From NCBI GenBank assembly GCA_963775425.1, contig CAVZJB010000018.1, forward strand, positions 96,001-160,000: 64,000 nt of DNA. Direction: 5' to 3'. The position numbers and the translations under genes are program-made. Shown piece after piece: positions 1-22,600 of the stretch. The notes under the pieces were generated by a model that was not told where the DNA came from, searched no databases, and saw nothing but the letters and a program-made list of their open reading frames with translations. How positions within the stretch are numbered: the stretch's first letter is position 1; each line of letters begins with the position of its first letter. Source of the DNA: an uncultured delta proteobacterium. GTDB taxonomy: Bacteria > Myxococcota > UBA727 > VGSZ01.

Positions 1-886
1 AGACGTACCTGCGCTGCCACCACCCCGTGCTCGGGCCGCAGGAGCCGCAGGCGCGGCAGCTCGGCTTGTCGCCGCAACTGTCGCGCGACGCGTTCACCCT
101 CGAGCGGCTGTGGCCGGCGCTGTTCGACCCGCGCGAAGACGTGCGCCGCTTCGCCGCCTCGGTGGCGCGCCTCGAGCTGCGCCGCTGGGGCGCGCAGCGG
201 CGGCTCGCGGAGCTGTGCGAGAGCGATGACAGGCAGGTGCGCAACGTCGCGCTCGACGCCATGCTCAGGGCCGGCGACCCCGCCGCCGACCCCGACACCA
301 CGCTCACCCTCGACGAGCTCGACGCCGAGGTCATCTTCCCGCTCACCGAGTCGAGCAAGAAGAGCGTGCGCGAGACGGGGATGGAGCTCATCCGGCGGCA
401 CTACGCGCGCCTCGGCGGCGTCGACAGGCTCGCGTGGCTGATGCAGTCGGCGGAGCGGGACGTGCGCTCGTTCGCGGTGCGCCTGCTGTGGGAGAAGCAC
501 CGGCCGCGGTCGACGCCCAAGGGGTGGCAGCCGCGCGCGGGCGTGATCTTCGACGACGCCGGGCGCTTCGCCGACGGCGTCGCCATGCGCGGCTTCCTGC
601 GCCGCGTGCTGCTCGCGCTGCCGCCGGGGGCCTCGCCCGGCGGTGACGACGACAAGGTGCGCAAGCACGTGCCCGCGAGCGTGGCCAAGCGGCGGCTCGT
701 CGAGGTCGTGCGCGACATCGCGGTGGCCGACGCCGCGTTCGCCGCCGTCGTGACGCCCGTGCTGGCGGAGATGACCGGCTCCTTGGCCAAGGGCGAGTGG
801 CAGGCGTGCCTGGCCGCCGTGCGGGCCATCGAGAGCGCGCACAAGAGCGGCGGCGCGCTCGCCCTGCCGCGCTCCGGGGGGCAGGC

Positions 887-890
<4 letters not shown>
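1..890 (+). CDS. HEAT/ARM-repeat-like protein, 5' end outside window; retron-associated gene
   Basis: Frame is open from the window start (TYLRCHHPVLGPQ...); HEAT-like motifs DPREDVRRFA, DDRQVRNVAL, AERDVRSFAV; stop overlaps next GTG (GTGA 887-890). Confidence 0.75.
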
Positions 891-7945
<7,055 letters not shown>

Positions 7946-8027
7946 AGACGCGGCCCGCTGACGCCGTGCCGGGGGCAGGCACGTGGCCGCGCCGCGTCGT
8001 CACCGGCGTCACCGGAGGGGGCGCACG

Positions 8028-9848
8028 ATGATCGCCGTGGCGCACAGCCGGGCCGTGCAGGTCCGTTACGCGCGCGCGAGCGCCGTCGAGGCCGGCGGCG
8101 ACGGCGCCACGCTCGGGCTCGCGCTCGACACGGGCCGCGGCACCGTCGGCGTGCGCGGCGTCGTCAAGGACGCGGCCCTCGTGCGCGACGCGCTCGTCAC
8201 CCTCGCGGCCGTCCGCGACAGCGATCTCCGCTACAAGGGCAGGGACCGCGCCGCCTACCTCGCGTTCCTGATGAAGAAGGGCAAGAAGGCCAACGCCCAG
8301 ATCTGGCAGGCGCAAAAGGCGTTCCTCGAGGGGCAATTCGAGGCCCCCGCCGTCGACGCCGGCTTCCTCGACCCCGTCCTCACGGTCCACCCCGACGAGG
8401 TCAGCATCGAGGTCTTCAGCAAGGACGAGTCCGCCTACGCCCGCCTCGCCTTCGACAACGCGCTCTTCCTCGAGCGCGCCGCCGCCCACGGCACCGCCTG
8501 CGTCGACCTCTCCCCCGCCGTCGTCGGCCAGCTCGCGCGGCTCCCCGGCTACCGCCCGCTCGCCCTCGACGCGCAGACCGCCGCCGCCGGCCGCCCCCAC
8601 GAGCGCGCCTGGGACCTCTCGCTGCCCTGGCTGCGCGGCTTTCTGCAGGTGCAGTCGGCCGCCGTCTTGCCCGCGGCCACCGCGGTCCTCGAGCCCGTCG
8701 ACCTCTACAACATCCTGTACGCCCTCCGCATGCGCCGGGCGAAGGTCCCGCCGCGCGGCCTCCGCTTCGAGCTCATCCCGGGCGAGCGCCCGCGCGTCGT
8801 CGTCGAGCCCTGGGAGATCGTGCTCGAGGGCCACGGGCCGCGCGTCGAGGCCCGGGAGGCGCGCATCGTGCGCATGTACGGCCGCCGACGCCTGATGCTG
8901 CTGCAGCGCGTGCTGCCCTACGCCCGCAAGCTCGACGTCCACCTCGTCGGCGCCGGCCTGCCCTCGTTCTTCTGCCTCGACCTCGGGCTCGCCTCCCTGA
9001 CGCTCGCCTTGTCGGGGTGGACGGAGTCGTCGTGGTCGAGCGCGGCCGCGTTCGACGCCCTCATGCCGTCGTCGTCGCAGGCGCACGCGCTCGCCGACCG
9101 CGTCCACGGGGTGCTCGCCGCGCGGGGCCCCACGCCGTTTTCCGCGCTCGTCGACGAGACCGGCGCCGCCCCCGAGGACCTCCGCGCGGCCACGCAGCTC
9201 TTGTCGTTGCGCGGGCGCGCGCTCTTTGACGTGGCCCGGCAGGTCTACCGGCCGCGCGACCTCTTCGTGAGCCCGCTCGACGACGCGGCGCTGCGCTACG
9301 GCAGCGCGCGCGAGGCGCAGGCGCACCGGCTGTTGTCCCAGGGCGACGCCGGCGTGCGCCTGAGCAAGGTCCACGAGCGCCCCGACGGCGTCGAGATCTC
9401 CGGGGAGGTCGCGGACGCGGAGAGCCGGCGCACGCTCCTGCCGCGATTTGTCATGGACGCCGAGGGCCGGGTGCGCGAGGCCGCCTGCACCTGCCCCGCG
9501 GTCAGGCGCGCGGGTATGCGCGAGGGCCCCTGCGAGCACATGATCGCCCTGCGCCTCGCCTACGGCAGGAAGCGCGCCGCCGACGCCGCCTTGCGCGACA
9601 CGCCCGAGGGGCGGCGGCTCATCCGCGCCGAGACCCGCACCTATCTGCGGCGGGACGAGGCGGGCCGGGCCGTCACCTGGCGGGTCTCCCTCGACGACAA
9701 GGTCGTCGCGGTGCAGTGGCAGGAGCACGCCGGCGCGCCGCGGTCACAGCGCTTGTGGTTCGATACAGATCAGGCCGCTCGCGATGCATATTTCGATAGA
9801 CTCAACGCGCTGGAAGCGCAAGGTTTTGTGAACTCCGATTCAGTCTGA
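8028..9848 (+). CDS. SWIM zinc-finger protein with C-terminal WGR-like domain; retron type XIII accessory protein
   Basis: GGAGGG RBS before ATG 8028; SWIM motif CTCP...GPCEH; C-terminal VTWRVSLDDKVVAVQW...QRLWFDTDQAARDAYF...AQGF resembles a WGR domain. Confidence 0.85.
   Translation: MIAVAHSRAVQVRYARASAVEAGGDGATLGLALDTGRGTVGVRGVVKDAALVRDALVTLAAVRDSDLRYKGRDRAAYLAFLMKKGKKANAQIWQAQKAFLEGQFEAPAVDAGFLDPVLTVHPDEVSIEVFSKDESAYARLAFDNALFLERAAAHGTACVDLSPAVVGQLARLPGYRPLALDAQTAAAGRPHERAWDLSLPWLRGFLQVQSAAVLPAATAVLEPVDLYNILYALRMRRAKVPPRGLRFELIPGERPRVVVEPWEIVLEGHGPRVEAREARIVRMYGRRRLMLLQRVLPYARKLDVHLVGAGLPSFFCLDLGLASLTLALSGWTESSWSSAAAFDALMPSSSQAHALADRVHGVLAARGPTPFSALVDETGAAPEDLRAATQLLSLRGRALFDVARQVYRPRDLFVSPLDDAALRYGSAREAQAHRLLSQGDAGVRLSKVHERPDGVEISGEVADAESRRTLLPRFVMDAEGRVREAACTCPAVRRAGMREGPCEHMIALRLAYGRKRAADAALRDTPEGRRLIRAETRTYLRRDEAGRAVTWRVSLDDKVVAVQWQEHAGAPRSQRLWFDTDQAARDAYFDRLNALEAQGFVNSDSV
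9797..9825 (+). promoter_or_regulatory. Candidate sigma-A-type promoter TAGACT-N17-AAGGTT inside the 3' end of the SWIM/WGR gene
   Basis: The last ~90 bp of the gene are unusually AT-rich; hexamers resemble the M. xanthus vegA promoter (TAGACA/AAGGGT, from memory) with a 17-nt spacer. Confidence 0.4.
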
Positions 9849-9964
9849 AGGGAGCGTCCGGTAGATGGTGGAAGAGCACGGCACCCCATGGATTGACGTC
9901 GTCGCGCAAGCGGCGCGCGTCGATCCTTGTGCGTTTCCACCCGGCAGCCATCGACTCCGTTCAG
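9845..9964 (+). ncRNA. Putative rod-shaped structured RNA/leader upstream of msr
   Basis: Nested pairings 9845-9854/9955-9964, GGTGGAA 9867-9873/TTCCACC 9935-9941, GCAC 9876-9879/GTGC 9929-9932, GGATTGACG 9890-9898/CGTCGATCC 9918-9926, CGTCGC-GCAA-GCGGCG apex (GNRA loop 9906-9909). Confidence 0.6.
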
Positions 9965-10010
9965 GCGCCGGGAAGGGGACTGTTCAAGTCCCCTTCCCGG
10001 TGTTTTTCTT
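9965..10010 (+). terminator. Intrinsic terminator
   Basis: Perfect 14-bp stem CCGGGAAGGGGACT (9968-9981)/AGTCCCCTTCCCGG (9987-10000), 5-nt loop, G-U extension, followed by TTTTTCTT. Confidence 0.8.
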
Positions 10011-10016
10011 GGATTC

Positions 10017-10284
10017 TGCTGGAGAGGGGATCGGTCGGATCAGCCTCCGTGCCTCGAGCACAGGAGCGGCGTTGCGCCGCTCTGGAGGATTCGCCCGACA
10101 TTCGCCGCAGGGTCGCTTGGTCTTGGCCCGCTTCGGGGGAGCTGCCCATCGGCAGTGCCCTGAGCGGAGCCAACGACGCGAACCGCCGTTTCAGGGCACT
10201 GCCGATGGGCAGCTCCCCCGGCGGGCCGGTGAAGCGACCAATGCCCCATGGAAGAAGGTGGCCCCTCCGGTCCCCTCTCCAGCA
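10017..10284 (+). ncRNA. msr-msd: Retron msr-msd non-coding RNA (Mx162/Sa163-like)
   Basis: a1/a2 inverted repeats TGCTGGAGAGGGGATCGG (10017-10034)/CCGGTCCCCTCTCCAGCA (10267-10284); msr hairpins GTGC-CTCGA-GCAC and GAGCGGCG-TTG-CGCCGCTC; msd perfect 30-bp stem 10134-10163/10191-10220; directly upstream of a retron RT. Confidence 0.93.
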
Positions 10285-10330
10285 CCTTTTGGACCGCGGC
10301 CGCTCCCTGCGGTCGCCACGCGGGCCGCCC

Positions 10331-11674
10331 GTGTCTGAGCTCGAGCGCTTCGTCTCCGCCGACGCGCCCGTGCTCCTCCCCGAGGAGCCGCCGCCGTCGC
10401 GCCGCGAGCGGCCGCGCCCCGACAGCGACGTGGAGGAGCGGGTGCGGCGCTGGCAGCAGATCGAGGCCGCCGGCGGCGTCGAGGCGTGGATCGAGGTGGA
10501 GCTCAAGAAGAAGGGCTTCGTCGACGAGACGCAAAAGGAGCGCAAGAAGGCTGAGGCCGTCGAGCGCCGCGCGCTCAAGAAGCTCGCGTGGCGCGCCTAC
10601 ACGGCCACGCACATCAACCACGTCGGCGCCGTGCACTGGTCCGACCACGTCGACGCCGACCGCTTCGACGTCGAGGAGCGCGAGGCCCGCGCGCAGTCGC
10701 TCGGCATCCCCGCCATCGAGACGCCGCAGGCGCTGGCGGCGCTCCTCGGCCTCACCATCCCGCAGCTGCGCTGGTTGTGTACGCACAGGGACGTCGACGA
10801 CGGCAGCCACTACCGCCGCTTCACCATCGACAAGCGCGACGGCAGCCCCCGCACCATCGCTGCGCCCCTGCCGATGCTCAAGGACGCCCAGCGCTGGGTG
10901 CTGCAAAACATCGTCGACAAGCTCGAGGTGCACGCCGCCGCCCACGGCTTCCTCGCCGGCCGCAGCATCGTCACCAACGCGCGGGCGCACGCCGGCGCCG
11001 ACGTCATCGTGAAGATCGACGTCCGCGATTTCTTCCCCACGCTCGACTACCGGCGGGTGAAGGGGCTGTTGCGCAAGGCCGGCCTCGTCGAGCAGACGGC
11101 CACGCTGTGCGCGCTTTTGGCCACCGAGGCGCCGCGCGACGTCGTCAGGTTCCGCGGCAAGACGCTGTACGTCGCCACCGGGCGACGGGCGCTGCCGCAG
11201 GGCGCGCCGACCTCGCCGATGATCACGAACGCCGTGTGCCTGCGGCTCGACAAGCGCCTGAGCGGCCTCGCCCGCAAGCTCGGGGTCGTCTACACGCGCT
11301 ACGCCGACGACCTGACCTTCTCGTATCGGGGCGATCCGCGGAAGGCGCCCACGGGCATCCTCGTGGCGAGCGCGCGCAAGATCCTGGCCGAGGAGGGCTT
11401 CACCCTCCACGACAAAAAGACCGCGGTGTTGAAGAAGGGCATGCGGCAGAAGGTCACCGGCCTCGTCGTCAACGAGGCCCCCGGCCGCCCGCCCGCGCGG
11501 GTGCCGCGCGCGGTGCGCCGCCGCCTGCGGGCCGCCATCCACAACCGCAAGCAGGGCAAGCCCGGGAAGCCCGGCGAGAGCCTCGCGGCCCTCCAGGGGA
11601 TGGCGGCCTTCGTGTACATGACGGACCCGGTCGCGGGGCGCCGCTTGCTCGACGACGTCCGCGCCCTCTCCTAG
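10331..11674 (+). CDS. ret: Retron-type reverse transcriptase (~447 aa)
   Basis: YADD catalytic motif, retron region X NARAH, region Y VTGLVVN, LPQGAPTSP; N-terminal extension (WQQIEAAGGVEAWI) like myxobacterial retron RTs; GTG start 46 bp after a1. Confidence 0.95.
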   Translation: MSELERFVSADAPVLLPEEPPPSRRERPRPDSDVEERVRRWQQIEAAGGVEAWIEVELKKKGFVDETQKERKKAEAVERRALKKLAWRAYTATHINHVGAVHWSDHVDADRFDVEEREARAQSLGIPAIETPQALAALLGLTIPQLRWLCTHRDVDDGSHYRRFTIDKRDGSPRTIAAPLPMLKDAQRWVLQNIVDKLEVHAAAHGFLAGRSIVTNARAHAGADVIVKIDVRDFFPTLDYRRVKGLLRKAGLVEQTATLCALLATEAPRDVVRFRGKTLYVATGRRALPQGAPTSPMITNAVCLRLDKRLSGLARKLGVVYTRYADDLTFSYRGDPRKAPTGILVASARKILAEEGFTLHDKKTAVLKKGMRQKVTGLVVNEAPGRPPARVPRAVRRRLRAAIHNRKQGKPGKPGESLAALQGMAAFVYMTDPVAGRRLLDDVRALS

Positions 11675-11685
11675 ACTGCCTCGCA

Positions 11686-12894
11686 ATGCGACTCGGTCCC
11701 CTCGTTTTCATGACCTATGGGGCCGTCGCCTCGGTCGCGGCGGCTCCCGCGCTCGGCTTCGACGGCGCGTTCAAAACCATCCCCGGCGGCGACTGGGACG
11801 TCTCGAAGGGGCCCATCCCCTTCGTGCTCGAGCCCAACGGCTCCGCCGACATCGACGACGGCTCCGATCTGCAGGCGGTGCGCGACGCCTTTCGGGCCTG
11901 GCAGTGCATCGACGGCGTGAGCCTCCGCTTCGAGGAGCAGGACGGCCCCGGCCCGGCCGACGCCAACCTCGAGGACGGCCAGAACAGCATCTTCTGGGAC
12001 GAGACCGGCGAATTCGGCCTCGGGCCGGGCACCCTTGGCGTCACCCTCGGCGACGCCACCCCCGGCCAGAAGCGCAACGCCGCCGACATCATCTTCAACG
12101 GCTTCGACTCCTCCTGGTCCACCGACGACAGGCCCAGCGCCGTCGACGTCGGCAGCATCGCGCTCCACGAGAGCGGCCACTTCCTCGGCCTCGATCACCC
12201 CTGCGACGGCAACGCCCCCAACGAGACCAACTGCAACGGCGCCGACCGCTCCATCATGACCCCGGTGTGGAGCGGCGCGGTGCAGCGCTTCCCCTTGCCC
12301 GACGACGAGGCGGGCGTGCGCTCGCTCTACCCCGCCGAGGCCGGCGACACGTCCACGTGCGACGGCCCCTTCCGCAAAGGCGAGAAGTGCTCGTGCGACG
12401 GCGACTGCGTGAAGGGCCTCGTGTGCGCCGCCGTCGACGGCGAGGACAAGAAGGTCTGCGCGGGCACCTGCGCGTCCGACGCCGCCGACTGCGGCCCCGG
12501 CTTCGTGTGCGCGCTCGCCGCGCCCGAGGGAGACGAGGCCGCGCCCGGCGTCTGCGTCAAGGACAACGAGGACGGCACCAAGCCCGCCGGCGCCATCTGC
12601 TCGCGCGGCCCCGAGTGCGCGTCGGGGACGTGCACGCTCATCTTCGAGCTCGCCCGCGACGTCTGCCAGGTGCCCTGCGGCGACAACGGCGACTGCGGCG
12701 GCGGCTCCTGCTTCAAGGGCTTCTGCCTCGGCGCCGCGTCGCACGAGGCGTGCGCGGAGCCGCCGGGTCCGCAGGGGTGCGGCTGCGCGTCGTCGTCGTC
12801 CCCCCTGGACGCCGGGCTCGCCGGCGCGGCCGCGGCGCTGCTCGCGGGCGTCGTCCGACGGCGGCGTGGGCACCGGCCCAGGGGAGCTCGATGA
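11686..12894 (+). CDS. Matrixin-like zinc metalloprotease with Cys-rich repeats and MYXO-CTERM-like anchor
   Basis: Signal peptide; HESGHFLGLDH metzincin motif; SIM Met-turn; C-terminal GCGC + hydrophobic helix + RRRR. Confidence 0.85.
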   Translation: MRLGPLVFMTYGAVASVAAAPALGFDGAFKTIPGGDWDVSKGPIPFVLEPNGSADIDDGSDLQAVRDAFRAWQCIDGVSLRFEEQDGPGPADANLEDGQNSIFWDETGEFGLGPGTLGVTLGDATPGQKRNAADIIFNGFDSSWSTDDRPSAVDVGSIALHESGHFLGLDHPCDGNAPNETNCNGADRSIMTPVWSGAVQRFPLPDDEAGVRSLYPAEAGDTSTCDGPFRKGEKCSCDGDCVKGLVCAAVDGEDKKVCAGTCASDAADCGPGFVCALAAPEGDEAAPGVCVKDNEDGTKPAGAICSRGPECASGTCTLIFELARDVCQVPCGDNGDCGGGSCFKGFCLGAASHEACAEPPGPQGCGCASSSSPLDAGLAGAAAALLAGVVRRRRGHRPRGAR

Positions 12895-14849
12895 CGGAGA
12901 CGCTCGCCGGCGGCCGCTACACCATCGTCCGCCGCATCGCCCAGGGCGGCATGGGCGACGTGCTGTTGGCGGAGTTCCCCGGCGACACCGCGCTCGGCGT
13001 CAGCCCGGGCCTCGTCGTCATCAAGCGGGTCCTCACCGATCACCCGAACCACGACCACCAGGCGGCCATGCTGCGCGAAGAGGGCCGCGTGGCCCTGCGC
13101 CTGCTGCACGACAACCTCGTGGAGACGTTCTTCGTCGACGACGACGACGGCGACCCGCTCCTGGTCATGGAGTTCCTCTCGGGCCGGGCCGCGTCGCATG
13201 TGCTCGGCAAGGCCAAGAAGCGCAAGGAGCTCGTGCCCGTCGAGGTGGCCCTGTCGCTGTTGCGCGCGGCGGCCTGCGGGCTCCACTTCGCGCACACGCT
13301 CACGGACCGGGGGCGCCCGCTCGGGCTCATCCACCGGGACGTGAGCCCCGCCAACCTGTTCGTCACCTTCGACGGCCGCGTGAAGGTCATCGACTTCGGC
13401 GTGGCCAAGGCCGACGACAGCGAGATCCGCACGAGCACCGGCATCTTGAAGGGCAAGCTCGGCTATATGTCCCCCGAGCACGCCCTCGGCGAGAAGCTCA
13501 CCCCCGCCGCCGACATGTGGTCGCTCGGCGTGCTCTTCTGGGAGACGCTCTGCGCCGAGCGGCTGTTCTCGCACGCGGCGCCGTCGGCGACGCTGGCCGC
13601 GATCTCCGACCGGCCCATCCCGCTGCCGAGCGTGCACCGGCCCGACCTCCCGCCGCACATCATCGAGCTCACCATGCGCCTGCTCGAGCGCCGCCTCGAC
13701 AAGCGCATCGGCGGCGGCGCCGCCCTCGTCGCCGCCATCGACGCGCTCCCCGAAGCCACCGGCCTCGCCCGCGTCGACCTCGGCTCGTGGCTGTCGGGGC
13801 GCTTCCCCGACGAGGCGGCGCAGGGACAGCTCGAGGCGTCCCGCTGCGCGCGCATGCGGCGGCGCACGCCGGTGCCCATCGGGCTGGTCGAAGGCACCGC
13901 CTCCCCCGCCCCCGTCGACGATGACGCGCCCACGGTGGTCATCGCGTCGGCGGCGTCGCTCATCCCCAAGGACATGCTCGAGGGCGAGGACGAGCTCGCC
14001 ACGTTGCGCCTCAGCCTCGACGAGCTGAGCGGCCCCGGCGCGGAGGCCCTCACCAAGAAGCTGCGCGGCGGCACCGGCGGCGGCAGCCTGCTCGCCGACG
14101 TCGACTCCCAAAGCGGCCCCTCGCCCCCCTCGCCCGCCGGAGACGACGTCGACGTCGACGTCGACGAGGGCGAGGACGTCGATCTGCGCACCGCCCAGCT
14201 CCCCGACGCCCAGGCCGCCGAGGCCCCGCGCGCCCCGCTTGTCTCGACGTCGGCGCGCACGCGCTCCCCGTCGGGGCTGTCGACGACCCTGCGCGCGCTC
14301 GACCGTGGCTCGTCGTGGGTGGCGGTGGCGTTTTTGACCTTCGGTGCGCTCGCGGTGGCGATGGGCGTGGCCTTTTCGTTCCTCGCGCCGCACCCGTCGG
14401 TGCGGGCGCTGGTGGCCTACGACGCCGCGGGGGGCGCCGACGAGATCGTGGTGGCGCTGCGCGACGCGCCGCCGGAGGGCGGCCGCACCATCGACGTCGC
14501 GGACCCGCACATCAAGATCGGCGGCGCGCTCAAGAGGCTCGACCCGGCGTCCTTCGACGAGCAGCTCGAGGCGTCGGGGGTGAAGGCGCGCGCGACGTTG
14601 CCGCAGACGGGGCGCGGGATCCTGGCGGTGCTCTTGCCGGTGTTGATCGCGGGCCTCGGCGTCCTCGCGCTGGCGGGCGCGCTGCCGGCGTTGGCGGTGG
14701 GCGCGGGGCGGCTGCGGGTGCTCTCGCAGGTCTTGCTCGTCGCGGTCTGCGCGCTGGCGTTGGCGGGGGTGGTGAAGCGCGGCGCGCTGTCGTGGCCCGG
14801 CCTCGACACCATCGAGACGCCGGCGCAGCTCCAGCCGCGGGCGCCGTGA
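12891..14849 (+). CDS. Hanks-type Ser/Thr protein kinase with C-terminal membrane segments
   Basis: IAQGGMGDV, VIKR, HRDVSPAN, IDFG, YMSPE motifs; ATGA overlap with upstream gene. Confidence 0.9.
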   Translation: MTETLAGGRYTIVRRIAQGGMGDVLLAEFPGDTALGVSPGLVVIKRVLTDHPNHDHQAAMLREEGRVALRLLHDNLVETFFVDDDDGDPLLVMEFLSGRAASHVLGKAKKRKELVPVEVALSLLRAAACGLHFAHTLTDRGRPLGLIHRDVSPANLFVTFDGRVKVIDFGVAKADDSEIRTSTGILKGKLGYMSPEHALGEKLTPAADMWSLGVLFWETLCAERLFSHAAPSATLAAISDRPIPLPSVHRPDLPPHIIELTMRLLERRLDKRIGGGAALVAAIDALPEATGLARVDLGSWLSGRFPDEAAQGQLEASRCARMRRRTPVPIGLVEGTASPAPVDDDAPTVVIASAASLIPKDMLEGEDELATLRLSLDELSGPGAEALTKKLRGGTGGGSLLADVDSQSGPSPPSPAGDDVDVDVDEGEDVDLRTAQLPDAQAAEAPRAPLVSTSARTRSPSGLSTTLRALDRGSSWVAVAFLTFGALAVAMGVAFSFLAPHPSVRALVAYDAAGGADEIVVALRDAPPEGGRTIDVADPHIKIGGALKRLDPASFDEQLEASGVKARATLPQTGRGILAVLLPVLIAGLGVLALAGALPALAVGAGRLRVLSQVLLVAVCALALAGVVKRGALSWPGLDTIETPAQLQPRAP

Positions 14850-16132: not shown

Positions 16133-17555
16133 TCAAGCGCGCAGCTTGTCCGCGAGCAGCCGGTTGACGGAGGCGGGGTCCGCCTTGCCCCCCGTCTTGT
16201 TCATCACCTGGCCGACGAAGAAGCCGGCGACCTTCCGCTTGCCGTCCTTGAGCTTCTTCCACTCGGCCGGGTTTTCGCGCACCGCCTCGTCGAGGGCGGC
16301 GGCGATGGCGCCCTCGTCCTTCACCACGCGCCAGCCCTTGTCCTCGACGATGCGCGCCGGGTCGGTGCCGCGCCCGCCCGCGATCTCGGCGAAGACGTCC
16401 TTCGCGATCTTGCCGCTGATGACGCCGTCGTCGACGAGCTTCACGAGCCCCGCCAACGCCGCCCCCGTGATCAGGGGCGCCCGCTCGCCGAGCCCGCCGA
16501 TCACGCGCTCCGGCGCCTCCAGCGCCAGCACCTCGTTCACGATCCAGTTCGCGATGGCCTTGGCGTTGTCGTGTGCCACCAGCGCCTCGTCGAAGAGCGC
16601 CGCCGCCTCCGCCGACACCAGGGCCGCGTCCTGCGCCGACAGTCCGAGCGCCTCGTAGCGCGCCTGCCGCGCCGCCGGCAGCTCCGGCATCTCGCCCTTG
16701 ATGCGCTCGATCTCGGCGTCGTCGATGACGAGGGGCGGCAGGTCGGGGTCGGGGAAGTAGCGGTAGTCGTGCGCCTCTTCCTTGCTGCGCATCGCGCGCG
16801 ACTCGCGCTTGTCCGCGTCCCACAGGCGCGTCTCGAGGACGACGGCGCGGCCGGCCTCGCGCTCGCGCACCTGCCGGATGAATTCGTGCTCGACGGCGGC
16901 GGCGACGAAGCGCGGCGAGTTGATGTTCTTGAGCTCCACGCGCTGGCCGAGCGCGGCGTCGCCCCTCTTGCGCACGCTGACGTTGGCGTCGGCGCGCATG
17001 GAGCCCTCCTGCAGGTTGCCGTCGCAGATGCCGAGGGCCATCACGAGGGTGCGCAGCGTGCGAAACAGCGCCGCGGCCTCGTCGCCCGAGCGCAGGTCGG
17101 GCTCGGTGACCACCTCGAGCAGCGGGGTGCCGGCGCGGTTGTAGTCGATGTAGCTGTGGTCGGTGCCCTCGACGTGCAGCGACTTGCCAGCGTCCTCCTC
17201 GAGGTGCGCGCGGGTGATGCGCACGCCGGCGAGGCTGCCGCCCTCGACGACGGGCTCCTCGTACTGCGAGATTCTGATAGCCCTTGGGCAGGTCCGGATA
17301 GAAGTAGTGCTTGCGGGCGAACGTGCTCCTTTTGCGGATGCGCGCGCCGAGCGCGAGCCCGAGGCGCACCGCGAATTCCACGGCGCGCGCGTTCACCACC
17401 GGCAGCGTCCCGGGCAGCCCGACGTCGACGATGTCCACGTCTTCGTTGGGCGGCTGGCCGAAGCGCACGGGCGCCGGCGAAAACAGCTTGGTCTTCGTGG
17501 CGAGCTGCACGTGGCACTCGAGGCCGACGACGACCTCCCACTCCTCGAGGCTCAT
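16133..17555 (-). CDS. gatB: Asp/Glu-tRNA amidotransferase subunit B with a 1-bp frameshift near 17272
   Basis: [11 protein letters not shown]...[14 protein letters not shown] in one frame, then [43 protein letters not shown] in another; total length 3n+1. Confidence 0.93.
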
Positions 17556-18367
17556 CAGTGAAAGCCCTGGGCCACGAGCGCGTCGAGCAGCGCGCGCTCG
17601 GTGACGCCGCAGGGGACGCCGTGGTTGTTGCAGGCGACGACCTGGATGTCGCGGCCGAGGCGGCCCTTGAGGTCGGCGACGAAGGCGTCGACGTCGGCGT
17701 CGTCGAGCTGGGGGTTGCCCGCGATGATGACGTCGAAGCTGGTGTTCTCGCTCTCGCGGGGCGTGAGGTCGACGAGGTTTGCGAGCGCGCTGATGTCGGT
17801 GAGGGCGGTGTTGTCGACGATGGCGAGGCCCTTTTGCACGCTGGTGACGCTCTGGAGGCCGTCGAGGCTCGTGACGTTCTCGGTGTCGCCGATGCCGAGG
17901 CCGTCGCCGGTGCGCTGCAGATCGCGGAAGTCGCAGAGGTCGGGGATGTCGACGTTGTCGGGGCCCTGCTTGAAGGTGCGCACCTGGCCCGTGGTGGAGC
18001 GGACGTCCTGGATGAAGGCGAGGTCCTCGGTGCCGCCGATCTCGATCTCGGGCTTGTCCTCGTCCTTGCCCTTGCGCCCGGGCGGGTGCGTGACGGGCGT
18101 GGCGGCGTCGCAGGCGCCGAAGGACGCGAGCGGCGCGCACTTGCCCTTGGCGGCGCCGACGGAGTCGGGCACGCAGACGTGCTCGACGTCGCAGTGCCCG
18201 TCGGCGACGGCGCACACCGCCCCGATGCCGGGCAGGGGGTCCGTGGGCGCGATGCCGCAGCCCCCGGCGAAGACGATGACGACGGCGGCGATCGCGACGG
18301 CGGCGCCGACGACGGGTGCGACGCCGTCGACGGCGCCCGCCCCCTTCGAAGCCGGAGCGCGGCTCAC
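17555..18367 (-). CDS. Putative lipoprotein with Cys-rich N-terminus and receptor-L-domain-like repeats
   Basis: Hydrophobic stretch + FAGGC lipobox; [34 protein letters not shown] repeats; coupled to neighbours. Confidence 0.7.
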
Positions 18368-19215
18368 TCCGCCTCCGGGAGCAAGAAGCCCGCGGCGAGC
18401 GCGCCGCCGCCGAGGACGGCGACGAGGACGCCGCCGGCGACCGCGAAGCGGCCGATGTTGTTGTAGGCGTCGCGCGCGTCGAGCGCGTCCTTGTGCACCT
18501 GGGCCGCCTTCGCGAGCGCGGCGTCGGTGCCGTCGAACGCGGTGGTGAGGTCGCGCAGCTCGTCCTTCTTGGAACCGTAGACGAGGGCGGGCAGCACGCC
18601 GAGCGCGGCGCCGGCGACGCCGACGGCCGCGCCCACGCCGCCGCCGACCTCGAGGCCGAAGCGCAGGGTGTCGTTGACGGCGAGCGCGGGCTTGTCCGGC
18701 GCGGCCTTCTTCGGCGCCTTGACCTCGACGGGTTTTCCGCCCGTGGCCTTCTCGAGGATGTCGTCGAGGGCGGGGCCGATCTTGTCCGGGAGCTCAGCGA
18801 GGCTCCAGCCCTGCACGCTCGCGCGTCCCTCGCCGCTCGCCACGCGGGCGTCGAAGAGCTGGAGCGCGACGACGATGACGCCGTCGAGCTTCCCCGCGTG
18901 CGTGGACAGGACGAAGTCGGCGCCCATCGCGCCCGCGATCTCCGCGAGGCACGAGGTGCTCCCCTGGTCGCAGCCCATCTGCTGCTTGTCCGCTTCGAGC
19001 GCGGCCATGTCCCGGATGTCCGTCGCCGACGTCACGTCGAGCGTCGGGAAGCGCGCCGCCCGCGCCGCGATGAACGTCGTCAGCGTCTCGGCCTGGCTCT
19101 CTTCGAGGTCCGGCGCGTTGACGTCGAGCACCAGCAGCTTCCAGCGTGCGACGGGGGCGTCGGCGCGCGCTGCCGGGGCGAGCGCGAGGACGACGAGGAG
19201 GGCGAGGGAGCGCAC
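18364..19215 (-). CDS. Exported protein with TolB-N/CsgG-like domain and C-terminal membrane helices
   Basis: Signal peptide; [22 protein letters not shown] motif similar to that of the PEGA protein at 49-50 kb; two hydrophobic C-terminal segments. Confidence 0.75.
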
Positions 19216-19422
19216 GCCCCGTTCCTAGCGGCACCGGTGCCGGCTGCCAACGGACCCCCAAAGGACTGGTCCGCGCCGCCTGGTCCGGCGGCGAGGCCCT
19301 TCCCTGCGGGCGCCCCTGGTCTTCTTCGCGCCGAGAGTGGGCGCAAGAACGCCGGAAAGGTGCCGGTGGCGGGCGCCCTGCGGGAAGGACCTCGCCGCCG
19401 TCCCGGCCGGCGGCGCTCCTTC
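18550..19422. repeat. ~870-bp direct repeat copy 1 (copy 2 at 32874-33744)
   Basis: Near-identical coding sequence and similar upstream region, with scattered substitutions and small indels. Confidence 0.9.
19287..19399. repeat. Hairpin repeat family A, copy 1 (others at 33613-33721 and inverted partial 38900-38988)
   Basis: 29-nt imperfect inverted arms GGCGGCGAGGCCCTTCCCTGCGGGCGCCC (19287-19315)/GGGCGCCCTGCGGGAAGGACCTCGCCGCC (19371-19399). Confidence 0.75.
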
Positions 19423-19641
19423 ACGAAGCACGAACGAGCTCGTCGTCGTCCCCGACTGTACGGACCGCGCGCGCCTTGGCCTGCGACTCCGCCTCTCCTC
19501 GCGCCACGCGTACAAGGGGCACCTCACGGAAATCCTCGACCAGACCACAGCGCGTGGCGCTGCGGGAGCCTCCGCCGCCGGCCTGCGGCGCGCGCTCCCC
19601 CGGCCAAGGTGGGGGACGCTGCGACGACCGCTGACCGAAAT

Positions 19642-22600
19642 TGCCTGTCATCGAGCTCGCATGTCTGCAAGCTCGCGTACTTCAACTACGCGTCGACGCC
19701 CTGGGAGCTCACGTACGTCCAACGGCCGTTGGTGACCACGAGCGGGAGCGTGCAAATCCGCCCGATCGCGAGCTACACCTGGGATACGTCCGGAAACGTG
19801 GCGACCCACTCGTGGGACCGGCACACGGTCTCCTCGTCGAGCACGCCCTGGTCTTCGTCGATGACTTTCACCGTGAACGGCACGAGCCGGGACTTCGACC
19901 TGGATGCCGCCGGCAACGTGACCGGATGCGCCACGGGCTCATGCGGCATCGACGGCGCGTACGACACGACCTCGGACGGCTACACCCTCGGAAGAACGGC
20001 GAGGCTCGACGTTGACGGCGTCTGGCACTCCGCGGACTACGCAGATGCGTCGGTGGTCACGCGCGGCCCCGTCCTCGTGTGCGAGCTCGTGCCCGACCAG
20101 ACCATGGTGGACCCGCCGACCTGCTCGCTGAGCGGCGACGTGGCGACTTGGGACACGCACACGACGCTGCGCAGCATCGAGCGCAGGTACTACGACTCGC
20201 TGGGCCGCCTCCGGGCGAGCGCGAAATACGACGTCGACGATCCGCTCACCACAACCGGCTCGGTCACGTTTCCCCACCAAGACGACCTCGACGCCGACGC
20301 CAACCCGTTCGCGGCCGGAGAGGCGCCCGAGGACGGCTGCGACACACTGACGACGAGCTTCACGGGCGGCTACTTCGACGTCACCTCGTACGACTACGAC
20401 AGCGACGGGGACGGCCTCACCGGAAACACCAACGAGGGCTCGAGCTCGACGAGCCTCTTCACGGCCCTCCCCGACATGCTCGTCACCCGTGTCACGCGCG
20501 CGGCGCAGTCGTCCGACGACACGACCCAGCGCACCTCCTGCATCGTCTACGAGCGCGCCGAAGACTCGAACAGCAACACCGGTCGAGGTGCGATCACCGG
20601 CATTCGCCGCTACGGCGACGATGGCGCGCTCGTGGCGTACACCGATCTGTCGCATGTGTTCCCGGTGACCTCGGGGGAGACGTACGAGAACGACCGCCTC
20701 TCGGAGATCGTGGCGTATCGCGACACCACGACCAGTCCGGCCAGCGAGTCGCGCGTCGACTGGCAAGCCTGCTCGAGCGATGCCTACGACGAGGTCGACG
20801 GCCACGCGATCTGTTGGGAGGTGCCGCAAGACACCGGGGATCCGATCTCGTTCAGCGAGACCATCACGGCAACGTCGGACACGGAGCCCTACGAGCTTCG
20901 CCGCGTGATGACGGTGAGCGGTGGTGGCACGACGTCCACGAGCTATGCGAACGAGCTCGCGTGGGGCCCGGCCTACGAGCGCGGCGTCGGCGACGGCGTG
21001 TCCGACTCGATCCCCGAGGGGAATTTCGTGCGCTACCCGCGGGACGGCACTTCTTGGGACGCCACCAAGGCGCTCGCCGTCGTGGGCGAGGAGCACTACG
21101 ACTCGACGGGGACACTGCTGTGGAAGACCGTGAGCACACGGAACAGCGGCAAGGATCCCTACGGCCGTGTGACGAACCGGCAGGTGCTGAACGGCACGGG
21201 CCTGGTCTTGCGCTCGAGCCGCGACCGAAACCTCGACACCGGCGCCGCTGGACAAGACCGCGTGAGCTCGGTGGACGACGAAGTCCGGTCGAGCCCTTTC
21301 AGCGAGGTGACGACCAGCTACGCGTACGTGGCCGACAACGATGACCGCCTCGACTACGTCACGGAGGCGGACGGCGACGTCGAGGTGAACACGTATGGCG
21401 AGACTGGCAACGAGACCGGCCGCCTCATCGAGGTGGCGCGTGGCACGAGCGTCTCGGGCGCGGACCCCGTGCAGGACTTCACACACACGCAAGACGGCCT
21501 CCTCTCCGAGAACTACAACTCGCAGCATTCGCAGACCACGCCCGCGTCGACCTACACCTATGACGCGCTGCGAAGACTGATCGCCGAGGACCGCTCGTCG
21601 GCGGGGCAGAGCGTGGAGTACGCGTACCTCGACGCCGGCCACGTCTCCGAGCGGATCGTCAAGGACAACAGCGGCACGATCCGCGCGGACATCTTGACCG
21701 GCTACGACGGGCTGGGCAGGCCCGTCATCGTGGAGGACGGGCTGACCGCGGCGACGCTGCGGGTCTACAAGTGGGACGAGAAGGACAACTCGACCTACGA
21801 GAGCGCGTCGCCTCCCGGCAAGTCGTACACCCTCGATAGCGAGTTCAACCGCGGCCGGCTGGCATACGTGGAGGACGTGCAAGACGGCAACGCGACGTTC
21901 TACCGGTATGACGCTCTTGGCCGGGTGATCAGCGTCGTCCAACACGACGGCCCGCTGTCGTCGTTCAGCGCGTCGAACCTCGTGCCGATCGACTTCTCCT
22001 ACAACGACTCCGGAACGCAGGAGCTCGCCTCGATCACGTATCCTTCGGGCATGGTCGCGACGTACAGCTACGGGAACGACAAGGAGCGGCCGACCGGGGT
22101 CTCCACGTCGCAGGGGGGCTTCAGCCTGACGAACGCCACGTACGAGCCCTCGGGCGCGGTCTCTGGCTGGTATTGGCAGGGGTACTCGTCGAACGCGCGA
22201 ACCATCACGCGGGACCTCCTCGGCCGCACGGCGGAGATCCTGGACAAGTACGCGGGCTCGACGTGGTCAGACGTGAAGTACTACACGACCTACGTCGGCG
22301 ACGGCTATGATGGCGACGGAGACTTGGTCAAGGAGCGCGACGTGTCGTCATCGGACACCTGGCTCAGCCACACGACGAGCGGCAATATGACCCGCAGCTA
22401 CGTCTACAAGGACGTCAGGGATCTGCTGAGCTCCTGGGTCGACGATGGGACGACAGAGACAATCAGCTACGCGGCAGACGGGACGAAGGCGAGCGACTCA
22501 CATGGGTCCTACAGCTACGACTCGACCGACTGGGAGCGCGTGGCGGGCCGCACCGGCGGAAGCATCTCTGCTTCGCTCGACTACACGTGGGACGGGTCCA

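What the first reader, a model, noticed from the sequence alone, without database searches (positions are those of the whole stretch)
9845..10010. Second structured RNA with its own terminator inserted between SWIM/WGR and the retron msr
Seen: a ~120-nt rod of five nested helices closed by a GCAA tetraloop, then a 14-bp terminator stem and U-tract ending 6 nt before a2, with a candidate promoter at 9797-9825. Retron ncRNAs are normally described as msr-msd only, and from memory the M. xanthus Mx162 spacer here is shorter and lacks such a terminator. Inference: an additional ~165-175-nt ncRNA component of the retron, or a regulatory leader.
Basis: partly seen in the sequence, partly recalled or inferred. 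Interest (0 to 1): 0.85.

Follow-up and report, generated by a model that had tools for sequence, protein, structure and literature searches.

The report
Orphan hairpin and terminator before retron RNA
A long RNA hairpin followed by a textbook transcription terminator really does sit between the effector genes and the non-coding RNA of this retron, but no related retron has it, so it is most likely local transcriptional punctuation and not a new retron component.

Summary
Bases 9845-9964 fold into a 120-nt imperfect hairpin ("rod": 44 pairs, 7 of them G.U, GCAA loop; -63.5 kcal/mol; z -5.5). Bases 9965-10010 are a canonical intrinsic terminator (14 perfect + 3 pairs, -36 kcal/mol, z -9.2, U-tract). 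The U-tract ends 6 nt before a2 (10017-10034) of the msr-msd.

The locus is a type XIII retron: HEAT-ARM, SWIM, msr-msd, RT (PADLOC).

The element is an orphan:
- It is single copy in its own genome and has no Rfam match.
- BLAST and a covariance model found it in none of 18 related type XIII SWIM-msr spacers.
- It is missing from the second type XIII-like retron of the same genome and from 10 genomes of the same family.
- Two exact patterns found nothing in 185,579 species genomes.
- Soil-metagenome contigs with an identical msr differ from the window immediately upstream of a2.

No covariation test is therefore possible, and no expression data could be obtained.

Best reading (about 0.55): a lineage-specific terminator/attenuator plus a structured 3'UTR or leader that separates effector transcription from msr-msd-RT. 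A by-product RNA of about 165-210 nt is plausible.

A regulated leader is not excluded, because codon GC3 collapses in the tail of SWIM, which hints at an embedded signal. A third retron RNA is unsupported. Interest is low to moderate.

The parts
797..7945 (+). HEAT/ARM-repeat accessory gene of the type XIII retron
   Evidence: PADLOC HEAT-ARM_XIII, E = 0, 1147 bits, profile positions 5-1968 of 1972.
7983..9848 (+). SWIM effector gene of the type XIII retron; its stop codon TGA is at 9846-9848.
   Evidence: PADLOC SWIM_XIII, E = 2.4e-144. tblastn to relatives runs to residue 619-620 of 621.
9750..9848 (+). AT-rich, GC3-poor tail of the SWIM gene. It may hold an embedded promoter or a processing site (inference).
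   Evidence: GC is 0.50-0.53 here against 0.68-0.82 upstream. GC3 is 0.55 in the last 33 codons against 0.98 in the rest of the gene, while the protein stays conserved. This is the lowest value among the high-GC3 ORFs of the window.
9845..9964 (+). The 'rod': a 120-nt imperfect hairpin whose base contains the SWIM stop codon.
   Evidence: It has 44 pairs, 7 of them G.U, and a GCAA loop. Energy is -63.5 kcal/mol on + and -50.0 on -; z is -5.5. It is single copy in the genome.
9867..9942 (+). Upper rod, the part that stays folded in every context tested.
   Evidence: -45.8 kcal/mol on its own. It is kept in the folds of 9780-10300 and 9840-10335, whereas the basal helices can re-pair with 10285-10308.
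9965..10003 (+). Terminator hairpin: 14 perfect pairs plus 3 more, with a 5-nt loop.
   Evidence: -36.0 kcal/mol for 9965-10003; z -9.2 for 9965-10010. Its 14-bp core (-30.1) is among the 61 strongest of 1394 hairpin-plus-T-rich sites in the 8.26-Mb genome.
10001..10010 (+). U-tract of the terminator (8 U in 10 nt); the 6-nt linker 10011-10016 follows.
   Evidence: Read directly from the sequence.
10017..10284 (+). msr-msd unit of the retron: a2 at 10017-10034, branching G at 10043 within CAGCC, msd stem at about 10111-10240, a1 at 10267-10284.
   Evidence: Folds. BLAST to the msr-msd of relatives gives 72-75% identity. The CAGC priming context of Mx162 comes from a passage of PMC6868368. Metagenome contigs match exactly from 10017/10018 to 10136.
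10331..11674 (+). Retron reverse transcriptase. The start at GTG 10331 is inferred; an in-frame ATG lies at 10241.
   Evidence: PADLOC RT_XIII, E = 3.3e-148; Pfam RVT_1; YADD is intact. The N-terminus lines up with the start of the Myxococcus RT (comparison by eye).

Best explanation
The 166 nt are a lineage-specific piece of transcriptional punctuation inside a type XIII retron operon.

The parts are a strong Rho-independent terminator (hairpin 9965-10003 plus U-tract to 10010) and, before it, a long hairpin (9845-9964) that begins at the SWIM stop codon.

Proposed working:
1. RNA polymerase arrives from the HEAT-ARM/SWIM genes, or from a start site inside the AT-rich tail of SWIM.
2. It transcribes the rod and mostly stops at the terminator.
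3. The effector mRNA therefore gets a doubly hairpinned, exonuclease-resistant 3' end.
4. Only read-through transcripts carry msr-msd-RT.

The element thus sets the ratio of effector mRNA to ncRNA/RT. It would leave an RNA of about 165-210 nt as a by-product.

It is not a conserved component of the retron machinery.

Shown: the structure, its strand bias, its single-copy state, its absence from relatives, and the type XIII context. Inferred: termination, read-through, and the dosage role.
For: Structure and strand
- The structure is real and favours the + strand: z -9.5 for the whole element and -5.5 / -9.2 for its two parts.
- The rod is -63.5 kcal/mol on + and -50.0 on -.
- It has 7 G.U pairs and no A.C mismatch; the two 1x1 mismatches are G.G and A.G.

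Terminator
- The anatomy is canonical: a 14+3 bp GC-rich stem, a 5-nt loop, and 8 U in 10 nt, lying 117 nt downstream of a same-strand stop codon.
- The genome holds 616 hairpin-plus-TTTT sites. The core of this one (-30.1 kcal/mol) is among the 31 of them at or below -30.

Context
- PADLOC calls HEAT-ARM_XIII, SWIM_XIII and RT_XIII.
- This matches the type XIII layout described in passages of PMC7736814.

Not conserved
- 0 of 16 measured SWIM-msr spacers of relatives has a comparable local fold. They are 49-143 nt long and fold at -7 to -53.5 kcal/mol, against 192 nt and -101.8 here. None has a strong hairpin with a U-tract.
- L002 and L049, where my anchor failed, showed no match either.
- The covariance model's best hit outside the element itself is 21.5 bits, E 0.015, on the opposite strand inside another gene.
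- 0 of the 10 other family genomes has a real hit.
- The paralogous retron on contig C4 lacks the element.
- Exact patterns gave 0 hits in genome contigs.

Outside the retron unit
- Contigs from 3 DNA runs match 10017/18/37-10136/40 with 0 differences but not the upstream flank.

Recurring theme in relatives
- Many relatives have a small, unrelated hairpin shortly after the SWIM stop, so a hairpin at this junction recurs in simpler form.
Against: - No transcript data: the runs I could lay hold only the msr part, as contigs.
- A terminator this strong placed 6 nt before a2 would starve the retron of ncRNA and RT unless it is read through. I found no promoter between it and a2, and no convincing promoter anywhere in 9650-10030.
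- The GC3 collapse in the SWIM tail suggests a start or processing site upstream of the rod. That would make the element a 5' leader rather than, or as well as, a 3'UTR.
- A purely passive terminator does not explain the rod's 7:0 excess of G.U over A.C, which hints at selection on the RNA.
- The base of the rod can re-pair with 10285-10308 at nearly equal energy (-320.4 against -316.8 kcal/mol). The modular picture is therefore not the only fold.
Confidence: 0.55

Rival explanations
1. Regulated cis-acting leader. Transcription of msr-msd-RT starts in the AT-rich tail of SWIM. The rod acts as a sensor or protein-binding domain, or as a processive-antitermination RNA, that decides whether polymerase passes the terminator. 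Retron ncRNA/RT output would then be conditional.
For: - GC3 falls from 0.98 to 0.55 in the last 33 SWIM codons while the protein stays conserved. It is also lower in the last 33 codons in 15 of 17 relatives, which fits a signal embedded there.
- There is no room for a promoter between the terminator and a2.
- The system looks intact: the RT has YADD and the accessory genes are full length. Some way past the terminator is therefore needed.
- The 7:0 excess of G.U over A.C favours selection on the + strand RNA.
Against: - The only candidate antiterminator pairing is 6 bp (9941-9946 with 9967-9972), against a -36 kcal/mol terminator. This is my reading.
- No consensus promoter was found.
- The element has no homologue, so no conserved sensor fold.
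- Relatives manage without it.
- The GC3 drop can have other causes; other genes in the window drop to 0.67-0.76.
Confidence: 0.15
2. Evolutionary relic. The rod, and perhaps the terminator hairpin, is what is left after the long a2/a1 arm seen in relatives was remodelled, or after an upstream msr-msd unit of a former tandem array decayed. It would have no role of its own beyond whatever termination the hairpin gives.
For: - Relatives carry 60-80-nt a2/a1 arms that start 0-55 nt after the SWIM stop with a purine-rich GGAGC-type motif. The window has only an 18-bp a2/a1, and the rod starts with a similar purine-rich motif right at the stop codon (comparison by eye).
- The base of the rod can still pair with 10285-10308 just after a1, as an outer a2/a1 arm would.
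- Tandem or multiple msr-msd units occur in relatives: L002, L049, L053, L044 and L047. They also occur in a metagenome contig, so units are gained and lost.
- A soft-scored alignment of 9822-9867 with 10002-10040 is borderline (p about 0.05).
Against: - Profiles of the relatives' a2 and a1 arms find nothing in 9700-10500, even at E <= 100.
- Similarity of the terminator arm to a1 is not significant: p = 0.047 by shuffling, and 118 of 6396 window segments score as well.
- The direct-repeat test with strict scoring gives p = 0.70.
- The covariance-model hit to the msd is a generic long hairpin at 20.4 bits.
- A decaying relic should show A.C as often as G.U, but the count is 0 against 7.
Confidence: 0.2
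3. Stand-alone third RNA of the retron. A terminated ncRNA of about 170 nt acts in trans with RT, msDNA, SWIM or HEAT-ARM as a true component of the defence system.
For: - It is a stable, strand-biased structure with its own terminator, placed between the effector and ncRNA genes.
- No known RNA family matches it.
Against: - It is absent from every related type XIII retron examined: 18 loci with a spacer, the paralogue on C4, and 10 family genomes.
- An identical msr exists elsewhere without it.
- No promoter was found.
- The 9-nt identity to the msd 3' flank (rod 9884-9892, msd flank 10244-10252; read) is expected by chance about once in five such comparisons, by my own estimate from the two lengths.
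Confidence: 0.06

Closest known systems
Rho-independent (intrinsic) terminators and operon-internal attenuators
   Same: A GC-rich hairpin of 14+3 bp with a 5-nt loop, directly followed by a U-tract, downstream of a same-strand gene and upstream of further same-strand genes.
   Different: A 120-nt rod precedes it, and it sits 6 nt from a retron's a2 arm. No alternative antiterminator fold was found. Termination itself has not been measured.
3'UTR-derived small RNAs that share the terminator of the upstream mRNA
   Same: A structured RNA between a stop codon and the gene's terminator, with an AT-rich stretch just upstream that could hold an internal promoter or an RNase E site.
   Different: There is no evidence for a discrete RNA, for a single-stranded seed region, or for targets. 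The rod is almost entirely double-stranded.
Type XIII retron ncRNA (Mx162-like) with its extended a2/a1 arms
   Same: The same position between SWIM and msr. The 5' arm is purine-rich and begins near the SWIM stop. The base of the rod can pair with sequence just after a1. The type XIII layout is as described in passages of PMC7736814.
   Different: In relatives the spacer pairs across the msr-msd. Here it pairs with itself and is followed by a terminator. No sequence homology is detectable.
Processive-antitermination RNAs
   Same: A structured RNA of about 70-120 nt inside an operon, next to intrinsic terminators that must be passed.
   Different: No sequence or structural match to any Rfam family. 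No functional evidence. This is an analogy only.
REP or MITE-type repeated palindromic elements
   Same: A long imperfect palindrome in an intergenic spacer.
   Different: It is single copy. The only other matches in the 8.26-Mb genome are 16-38-nt GC-rich chance hits to the apex.

Membership tests
Rho-independent terminator | Stable GC-rich hairpin | tested here: met
   9965-10003 has 17 pairs (14 perfect Watson-Crick) and folds at -36.0 kcal/mol; the stretch 9965-10010 has z -9.2.
Rho-independent terminator | U-tract directly 3' of the stem | tested here: met
   8 U in the 10 nt at 10001-10010.
Rho-independent terminator | Transcripts actually end there | not testable with these tools
   No run holds this stretch. 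The runs that were laid are contigs and cover only the msr.
Retron ncRNA (msr-msd) component | Lies within the a2/a1-bounded unit that the RT uses | tested here: not met
   a2 starts at 10017 and the element ends at 10010. Exact metagenome matches to the unit begin at 10017/10018 and have different upstream letters.
Retron ncRNA (msr-msd) component | Conserved among retrons of the same type | tested here: not met
   No match in 18 type XIII loci with a SWIM-msr spacer, in the paralogue on C4, or in the 10 other family genomes.
Riboswitch or attenuator leader | Promoter upstream and inside the same transcript | tested here: inconclusive
   No consensus promoter was found, but GC3 and GC collapse at 9750-9848.
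Riboswitch or attenuator leader | Mutually exclusive antiterminator fold | tested here: not met
   Only a 6-bp alternative (9941-9946 with 9967-9972) was found by reading. The 3' arm of the terminator can pair with a2 (-19.6 kcal/mol), but that is far weaker than the terminator.
Riboswitch or attenuator leader | Conserved sensor domain with covariation | tested here: not met
   There are no homologues to align and no Rfam match.
REP/MITE repeat | Many copies in the genome | tested here: not met
   One full-length copy in 8.26 Mb.
Any Rfam family | Covariance-model score at or above the gathering threshold | tested here: not met
   0 matches in the whole window at gathering thresholds. At E <= 10 there are only sub-threshold, miRNA-like hairpin hits to the msd and to the terminator hairpin, and none on the rod.
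Type XIII retron (the surrounding system) | RT of clade XIII with a SWIM protein and a HEAT/ARM protein | tested here: met
   RT_XIII E = 3.3e-148, SWIM_XIII E = 2.4e-144, HEAT-ARM_XIII E = 0. YADD is present.

The most novel reading that the evidence does not exclude
The rod plus terminator is a conditional gate on a retron. Transcription starts in the AT-rich tail of SWIM, and the rod decides whether polymerase passes a near-perfect terminator into msr-msd-RT, either by binding a protein such as SWIM, HEAT-ARM or RT, or by acting on polymerase as an antitermination RNA. That would be the first known case in which production of retron ncRNA and msDNA is switched at the level of transcription attenuation.
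Probability: 0.12. Interest if true: 0.7.

Novelty: new member of a known kind. Interest (0 to 1): 0.3.

Why it matters
If this is only a terminator with a structured 3'UTR, it matters little. It would show that type XIII retrons can be split into two transcription units, or tuned by attenuation, and that the long a2/a1 arm typical of Myxococcus-type retrons is dispensable.

It would matter more if the element were a regulated gate on ncRNA/RT output. How retron activity is kept in check before infection is an open question, and a cis-acting switch would be directly testable. At present nothing beyond anatomy supports that reading.

The comparison also produced practical information for retron annotation and engineering:
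- the exact boundary of the conserved msr unit, at the first base of a2;
- the short 18-bp a2/a1;
- the frequent occurrence of several msr-msd units with different msd stems around one RT.

Tried and rejected
1. Known RNA family. Rfam at gathering thresholds on the whole window gave 0 matches. At E <= 10 on 9700-10400 there were only sub-threshold, miRNA-like hairpin hits on the msd and the terminator hairpin.

2. Repeat element. The own genome holds one copy. The remaining hits are 16-38-nt GC-rich matches to the apex. A 32-nt, 91% match to the apex lies on another contig of G009, not at its retron; I read it as the same kind of chance hit.

3. Homologues by sequence.
- blastn against the 5 family-relative loci and 7 metagenome loci gave no rod or terminator hit.
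- A search of 41 genomes (G000 and 40 relatives) with 9600-10450 matched only the SWIM tail and the msr-msd.
- Two exact patterns in genome contigs gave 0 hits.

4. Homologues by structure. I built a single-sequence covariance model, R1, from the same window stretch entered twice. No credible hit appeared in 22 loci or in the 10 other family genomes. A single-sequence model has little power for distant relatives.

5. Rod as a relocated a2/a1 extension. nhmmer profiles of the a2 arms (4 loci) and a1 arms (3 loci) of family relatives found nothing in 9700-10500 at E <= 100. Only a shared 7-mer and a purine-rich motif remain, seen by eye.

6. Terminator hairpin as a collapsed a2/a1. The 3' arm against a1 gives p = 0.047, and 118 of 6396 segments score as well. 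The 5' arm against a2 gives p = 0.15. Not significant.

7. Flanking direct repeats, as an insertion would leave. Strict scoring gives p = 0.70 and soft scoring p = 0.049. Not convincing.

8. Coding. The ORF 9865-10338 (157 aa) runs through the terminator and the msr-msd. I rejected it as a gene.

9. Expression and habitat. All 24 listed runs hold only 0.05-0.08 of the sampled words. In the 4 runs that were laid, only short matches of 35-45 nt at low identity fall on the rod, and no contig covers it. This says nothing about transcription. The missing cover is reported here only.

10. Absolute folding energy as a criterion. I rejected it, because 130-nt windows at -80 to -112 kcal/mol are common in this DNA.

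11. Window position 52321 (z -7.6) looked like ordinary GC-rich sequence when folded. I did not pursue it.

12. Literature. Three full-text searches and passages of PMC7736814, PMC6868368 and PMC13712802 turned up no description of a terminator, attenuator or extra RNA upstream of msr in retrons. Supplementary files were not requested. The supplementary ncRNA structure figures of PMC7736814 could bear on the type XIII consensus.

Full report
WHAT IS THERE

The window around the finding encodes a type XIII retron, all on the + strand:
- A 2382-aa HEAT/ARM protein at 797-7945 (PADLOC HEAT-ARM_XIII, E = 0).
- A 621-aa SWIM protein at 7983-9848 (SWIM_XIII, E = 2.4e-144).
- An msr-msd unit.
- A reverse transcriptase ending at 11674 (RT_XIII, E = 3.3e-148; Pfam RVT_1; YADD intact).

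This is the layout that Mestre et al. describe for type XIII, the Mx162/Mx65 group (passages of PMC7736814).

The msr-msd unit is bounded by a2 (10017-10034) and a1 (10267-10284), which form 18 pairs including one G.U. The priming G is at 10043 in a CAGCC context. The CAGC context of Mx162 comes from a passage of PMC6868368.

The RT most likely starts at GTG 10331. From there its N-terminus lines up with the start of the Myxococcus RTs (comparison by eye). An in-frame ATG at 10241 would overlap a1.

THE OBSERVATION

Bases 9845-10010 fold on the + strand to -101.5 kcal/mol, with z -9.53, and 0 of 200 shuffles fold as well. There are two modules.

The rod, 9845-9964:
- It has 44 pairs in six helices and a GCAA tetraloop.
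- Its first helix contains the SWIM stop codon.
- Alone it folds at -63.5 kcal/mol with z -5.5.
- Of 267 background 120-nt windows from the same 64 kb, one was more extreme.

The hairpin, 9965-10003:
- It has 14 perfect pairs plus 3 more and a 5-nt loop, and folds at -36 kcal/mol.
- With its tail (9965-10010) the z-score is -9.2.
- Eight U in ten nt follow it.
- The tract ends 6 nt before a2.

The + strand is favoured:
- The rod folds at -63.5 kcal/mol on + and -50.0 on -.
- Seven of its pairs are G.U, while no A.C mismatch occurs. The two 1x1 mismatches are G.G and A.G.

Two cautions apply:
- In absolute energy the rod is ordinary for DNA this GC-rich. The 25 best 130-nt windows run from -80 to -112 kcal/mol.
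- The proposed promoter at 9797-9825 is weak: 6 of 12 consensus positions by my reading, and nothing in the tool's scan. The best I found anywhere in 9650-10030 was 7 of 12.

IS IT A KNOWN OR REPEATED THING?

No.
- Rfam gives nothing at gathering thresholds in the whole window. Permissive thresholds give only generic hairpin noise, and none of it on the rod.
- The own 8.26-Mb genome has one copy of the rod, of the terminator and of the msr-msd unit.

IS IT SHARED BY RELATED RETRONS?

No.

I collected type XIII loci from three sources:
- Species genomes: 15 loci, of which 11 have 50-58% RT identity.
- Metagenome contigs: 9 loci, of which 7 are type XIII.
- Four genomes of the window's own family.

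Eighteen of these loci have a SWIM-msr spacer.

Spacer measurements:
- In the 16 spacers I could measure, the distance from the SWIM stop to the CAGC anchor is 49-143 nt. Taken alone they fold at -7 to -53.5 kcal/mol.
- In the window the same stretch is 192 nt and folds at -101.8 kcal/mol.

In the relatives the spacer is mainly the 5' half of a long a2/a1 arm of 60-80 nt, which pairs across the msr-msd. Often a small, unrelated hairpin without a U-tract precedes it, shortly after the stop codon. None has a strong hairpin with a U-tract.

Searches for the element itself:
- blastn found no rod or terminator match.
- A covariance model built from the window's structure found nothing credible in 22 loci. 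The best foreign hit scores 21.5 bits, E 0.015, on the opposite strand of another gene.
- The same model found nothing in the 10 other family genomes.
- Two exact patterns found nothing among 185,579 species genomes.
- The same genome holds a second, divergent type XIII-like retron on contig C4 (RT 45% and SWIM 34% identical). Its a2 arm starts about 35 nt after the stop, with no rod and no terminator.

Soil-metagenome contigs from three DNA runs match the window exactly from 10017, 10018 or 10037 to 10136 or 10140, with 0 differences. Their upstream letters do not match the window. So the conserved unit begins at the first base of a2, and the rod and terminator lie outside it.

Because no homologue exists, no covariation test can be done.

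WHAT IT MOST LIKELY DOES

The hairpin with its U-tract is a textbook intrinsic terminator. In my genome-wide scan, 1394 hairpins are followed by a T-rich stretch, and 616 of those have a TTTT run. The 14-bp core of this one (-30.1 kcal/mol) is among the 61 and the 31 strongest, respectively.

The simplest reading is that the element punctuates the operon:
1. Transcripts from HEAT-ARM/SWIM mostly end at about 10005-10010.
2. Those transcripts carry a doubly hairpinned 3' end.
3. Only read-through RNA carries msr-msd-RT.

I give this reading about 0.55.

The difficulty is that a terminator this good, 6 nt before a2, leaves no room for a separate msr promoter. The retron must therefore live on read-through, or on something that helps polymerase across.

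One observation bears on this. GC3 of SWIM is 0.98 over most of the gene but 0.55 in the last 33 codons, although the protein stays conserved to its end. GC falls to 0.50-0.53 at 9750-9840.

In 15 of 17 relatives GC3 is also lower in the last 33 codons, mostly by less. Other genes of the window drop at most to 0.67-0.76.

This pattern fits a signal embedded in the tail of SWIM, either a start site or a processing site for the ncRNA precursor. If so, the rod and terminator lie in a 5' leader and act as an attenuator.

I found no alternative fold that would make the attenuator switchable:
- The only antiterminator pairing is 6 bp.
- The 3' arm of the terminator can pair with a2, but only at -19.6 kcal/mol against -36 for the terminator.

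I rate a regulated leader at about 0.15 and a trans-acting third RNA at about 0.06.

WHERE IT MAY COME FROM

Three observations bear on the origin:
- The window's a2/a1 is short (18 bp), while relatives have long arms.
- The 5' arm of the rod is purine-rich. It starts at the stop codon with a GGAGC-type motif like the one that opens the a2 arm in several relatives (by eye).
- In a fold of 9840-10335 the base of the rod re-pairs with sequence just after a1 at almost the same energy as the modular fold. The MFE is -320.4 kcal/mol, and a second long-range helix to 10301-10308 costs only 3.6 kcal/mol more. The upper rod, 9867-9942, is constant in all folds.

This suggests that the rod grew out of the old a2 arm, or out of a decayed upstream unit of a tandem array. 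Every statistical test of that idea failed or was borderline. I keep it as a rival at about 0.2. It concerns origin and is compatible with a terminator function.

COMPARISON WITH WHAT IS KNOWN, AND VERDICT

The terminator is a member of a known kind.

The rod has no family. It works most like a structured 3'UTR or leader next to an operon-internal terminator.

I found no report of a terminator, an attenuator or an extra RNA upstream of msr in retrons. This rests on three full-text searches and passages of three papers. Supplements were not seen.

The finding is real but lineage-specific and has no support from conservation or expression. It is worth a Northern blot and a Term-seq look if the organism or a clone is at hand, but it is not evidence for a new retron component. 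Interest is 0.3.

Noticed in passing
L053 2535-2785, 4477-4698, 4752-4993; L044 (G005) 5799-6039, 3962-4173, 3576-3787 (- strand); L002 3479-3901; L049 295-716; L047 (G008) 30-130: Several related type XIII retrons carry two or three msr-msd units around one RT. The units lie in tandem before the RT or after it, with near-identical msr but different msd stems. A passage of PMC6868368 cites repeated msr-msd copies in Nannocystis (Ne160), but I did not find arrays with varied msd stems described for type XIII.
   Followed up: partly
window 10017-10140: The a2-msr part of the unit occurs with 0 differences in contigs of three soil or rhizosphere DNA runs from different studies. Both flanks differ from the window, including the upper msd stem. 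One contig joins the a1 end of one unit to the next a2 through a T-rich linker, which is a tandem array. The msr looks like a conserved cassette with a variable msd.
   Followed up: partly
L001 3964-4136; L003 4064-4220; L048 1305-1467: In three Polyangiales-type loci only 156-172 nt separate the end of SWIM from RT core residue 74, and BLAST detects no msr within the fetched DNA. Their ncRNA must lie elsewhere or be very different.
   Followed up: no
window 9750-9848 and the SWIM 3' ends of 17 related loci: GC3 drops in the last 33 codons of SWIM: 0.98 to 0.55 here, and lower than the rest of the gene in 15 of 17 relatives. This could mark a conserved promoter or processing site for the retron ncRNA inside the coding sequence.
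   Followed up: partly
G000 contig C4, about 17130-20576 (- strand): The same genome holds a second, divergent type XIII-like retron (RT 45% and SWIM 34% identical). It has a conventional long a2 arm that starts about 35 nt after the stop, and its SWIM protein lacks the C-terminal tail.
   Followed up: partly
window about 11686-12894 and about 12900-14849: Directly after the RT, with no terminator between, come an M10-type metallopeptidase-like gene and a Ser/Thr kinase. The kinase matches the defence-associated PADLOC families mad6 and PD-T4-6 (E = 1.5e-47). This may be a defence island or a longer operon.
   Followed up: no
L010 and L011 (one MAG): tblastn matches SWIM and, in L011, the RT in several pieces in different frames. 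These may be decayed copies or assembly errors.
   Followed up: no
window 9965-10010: scan_promoters_terminators did not list this hairpin and U-tract, although it seems to meet the tool's stated criteria. My own scan found it.
   Followed up: yes
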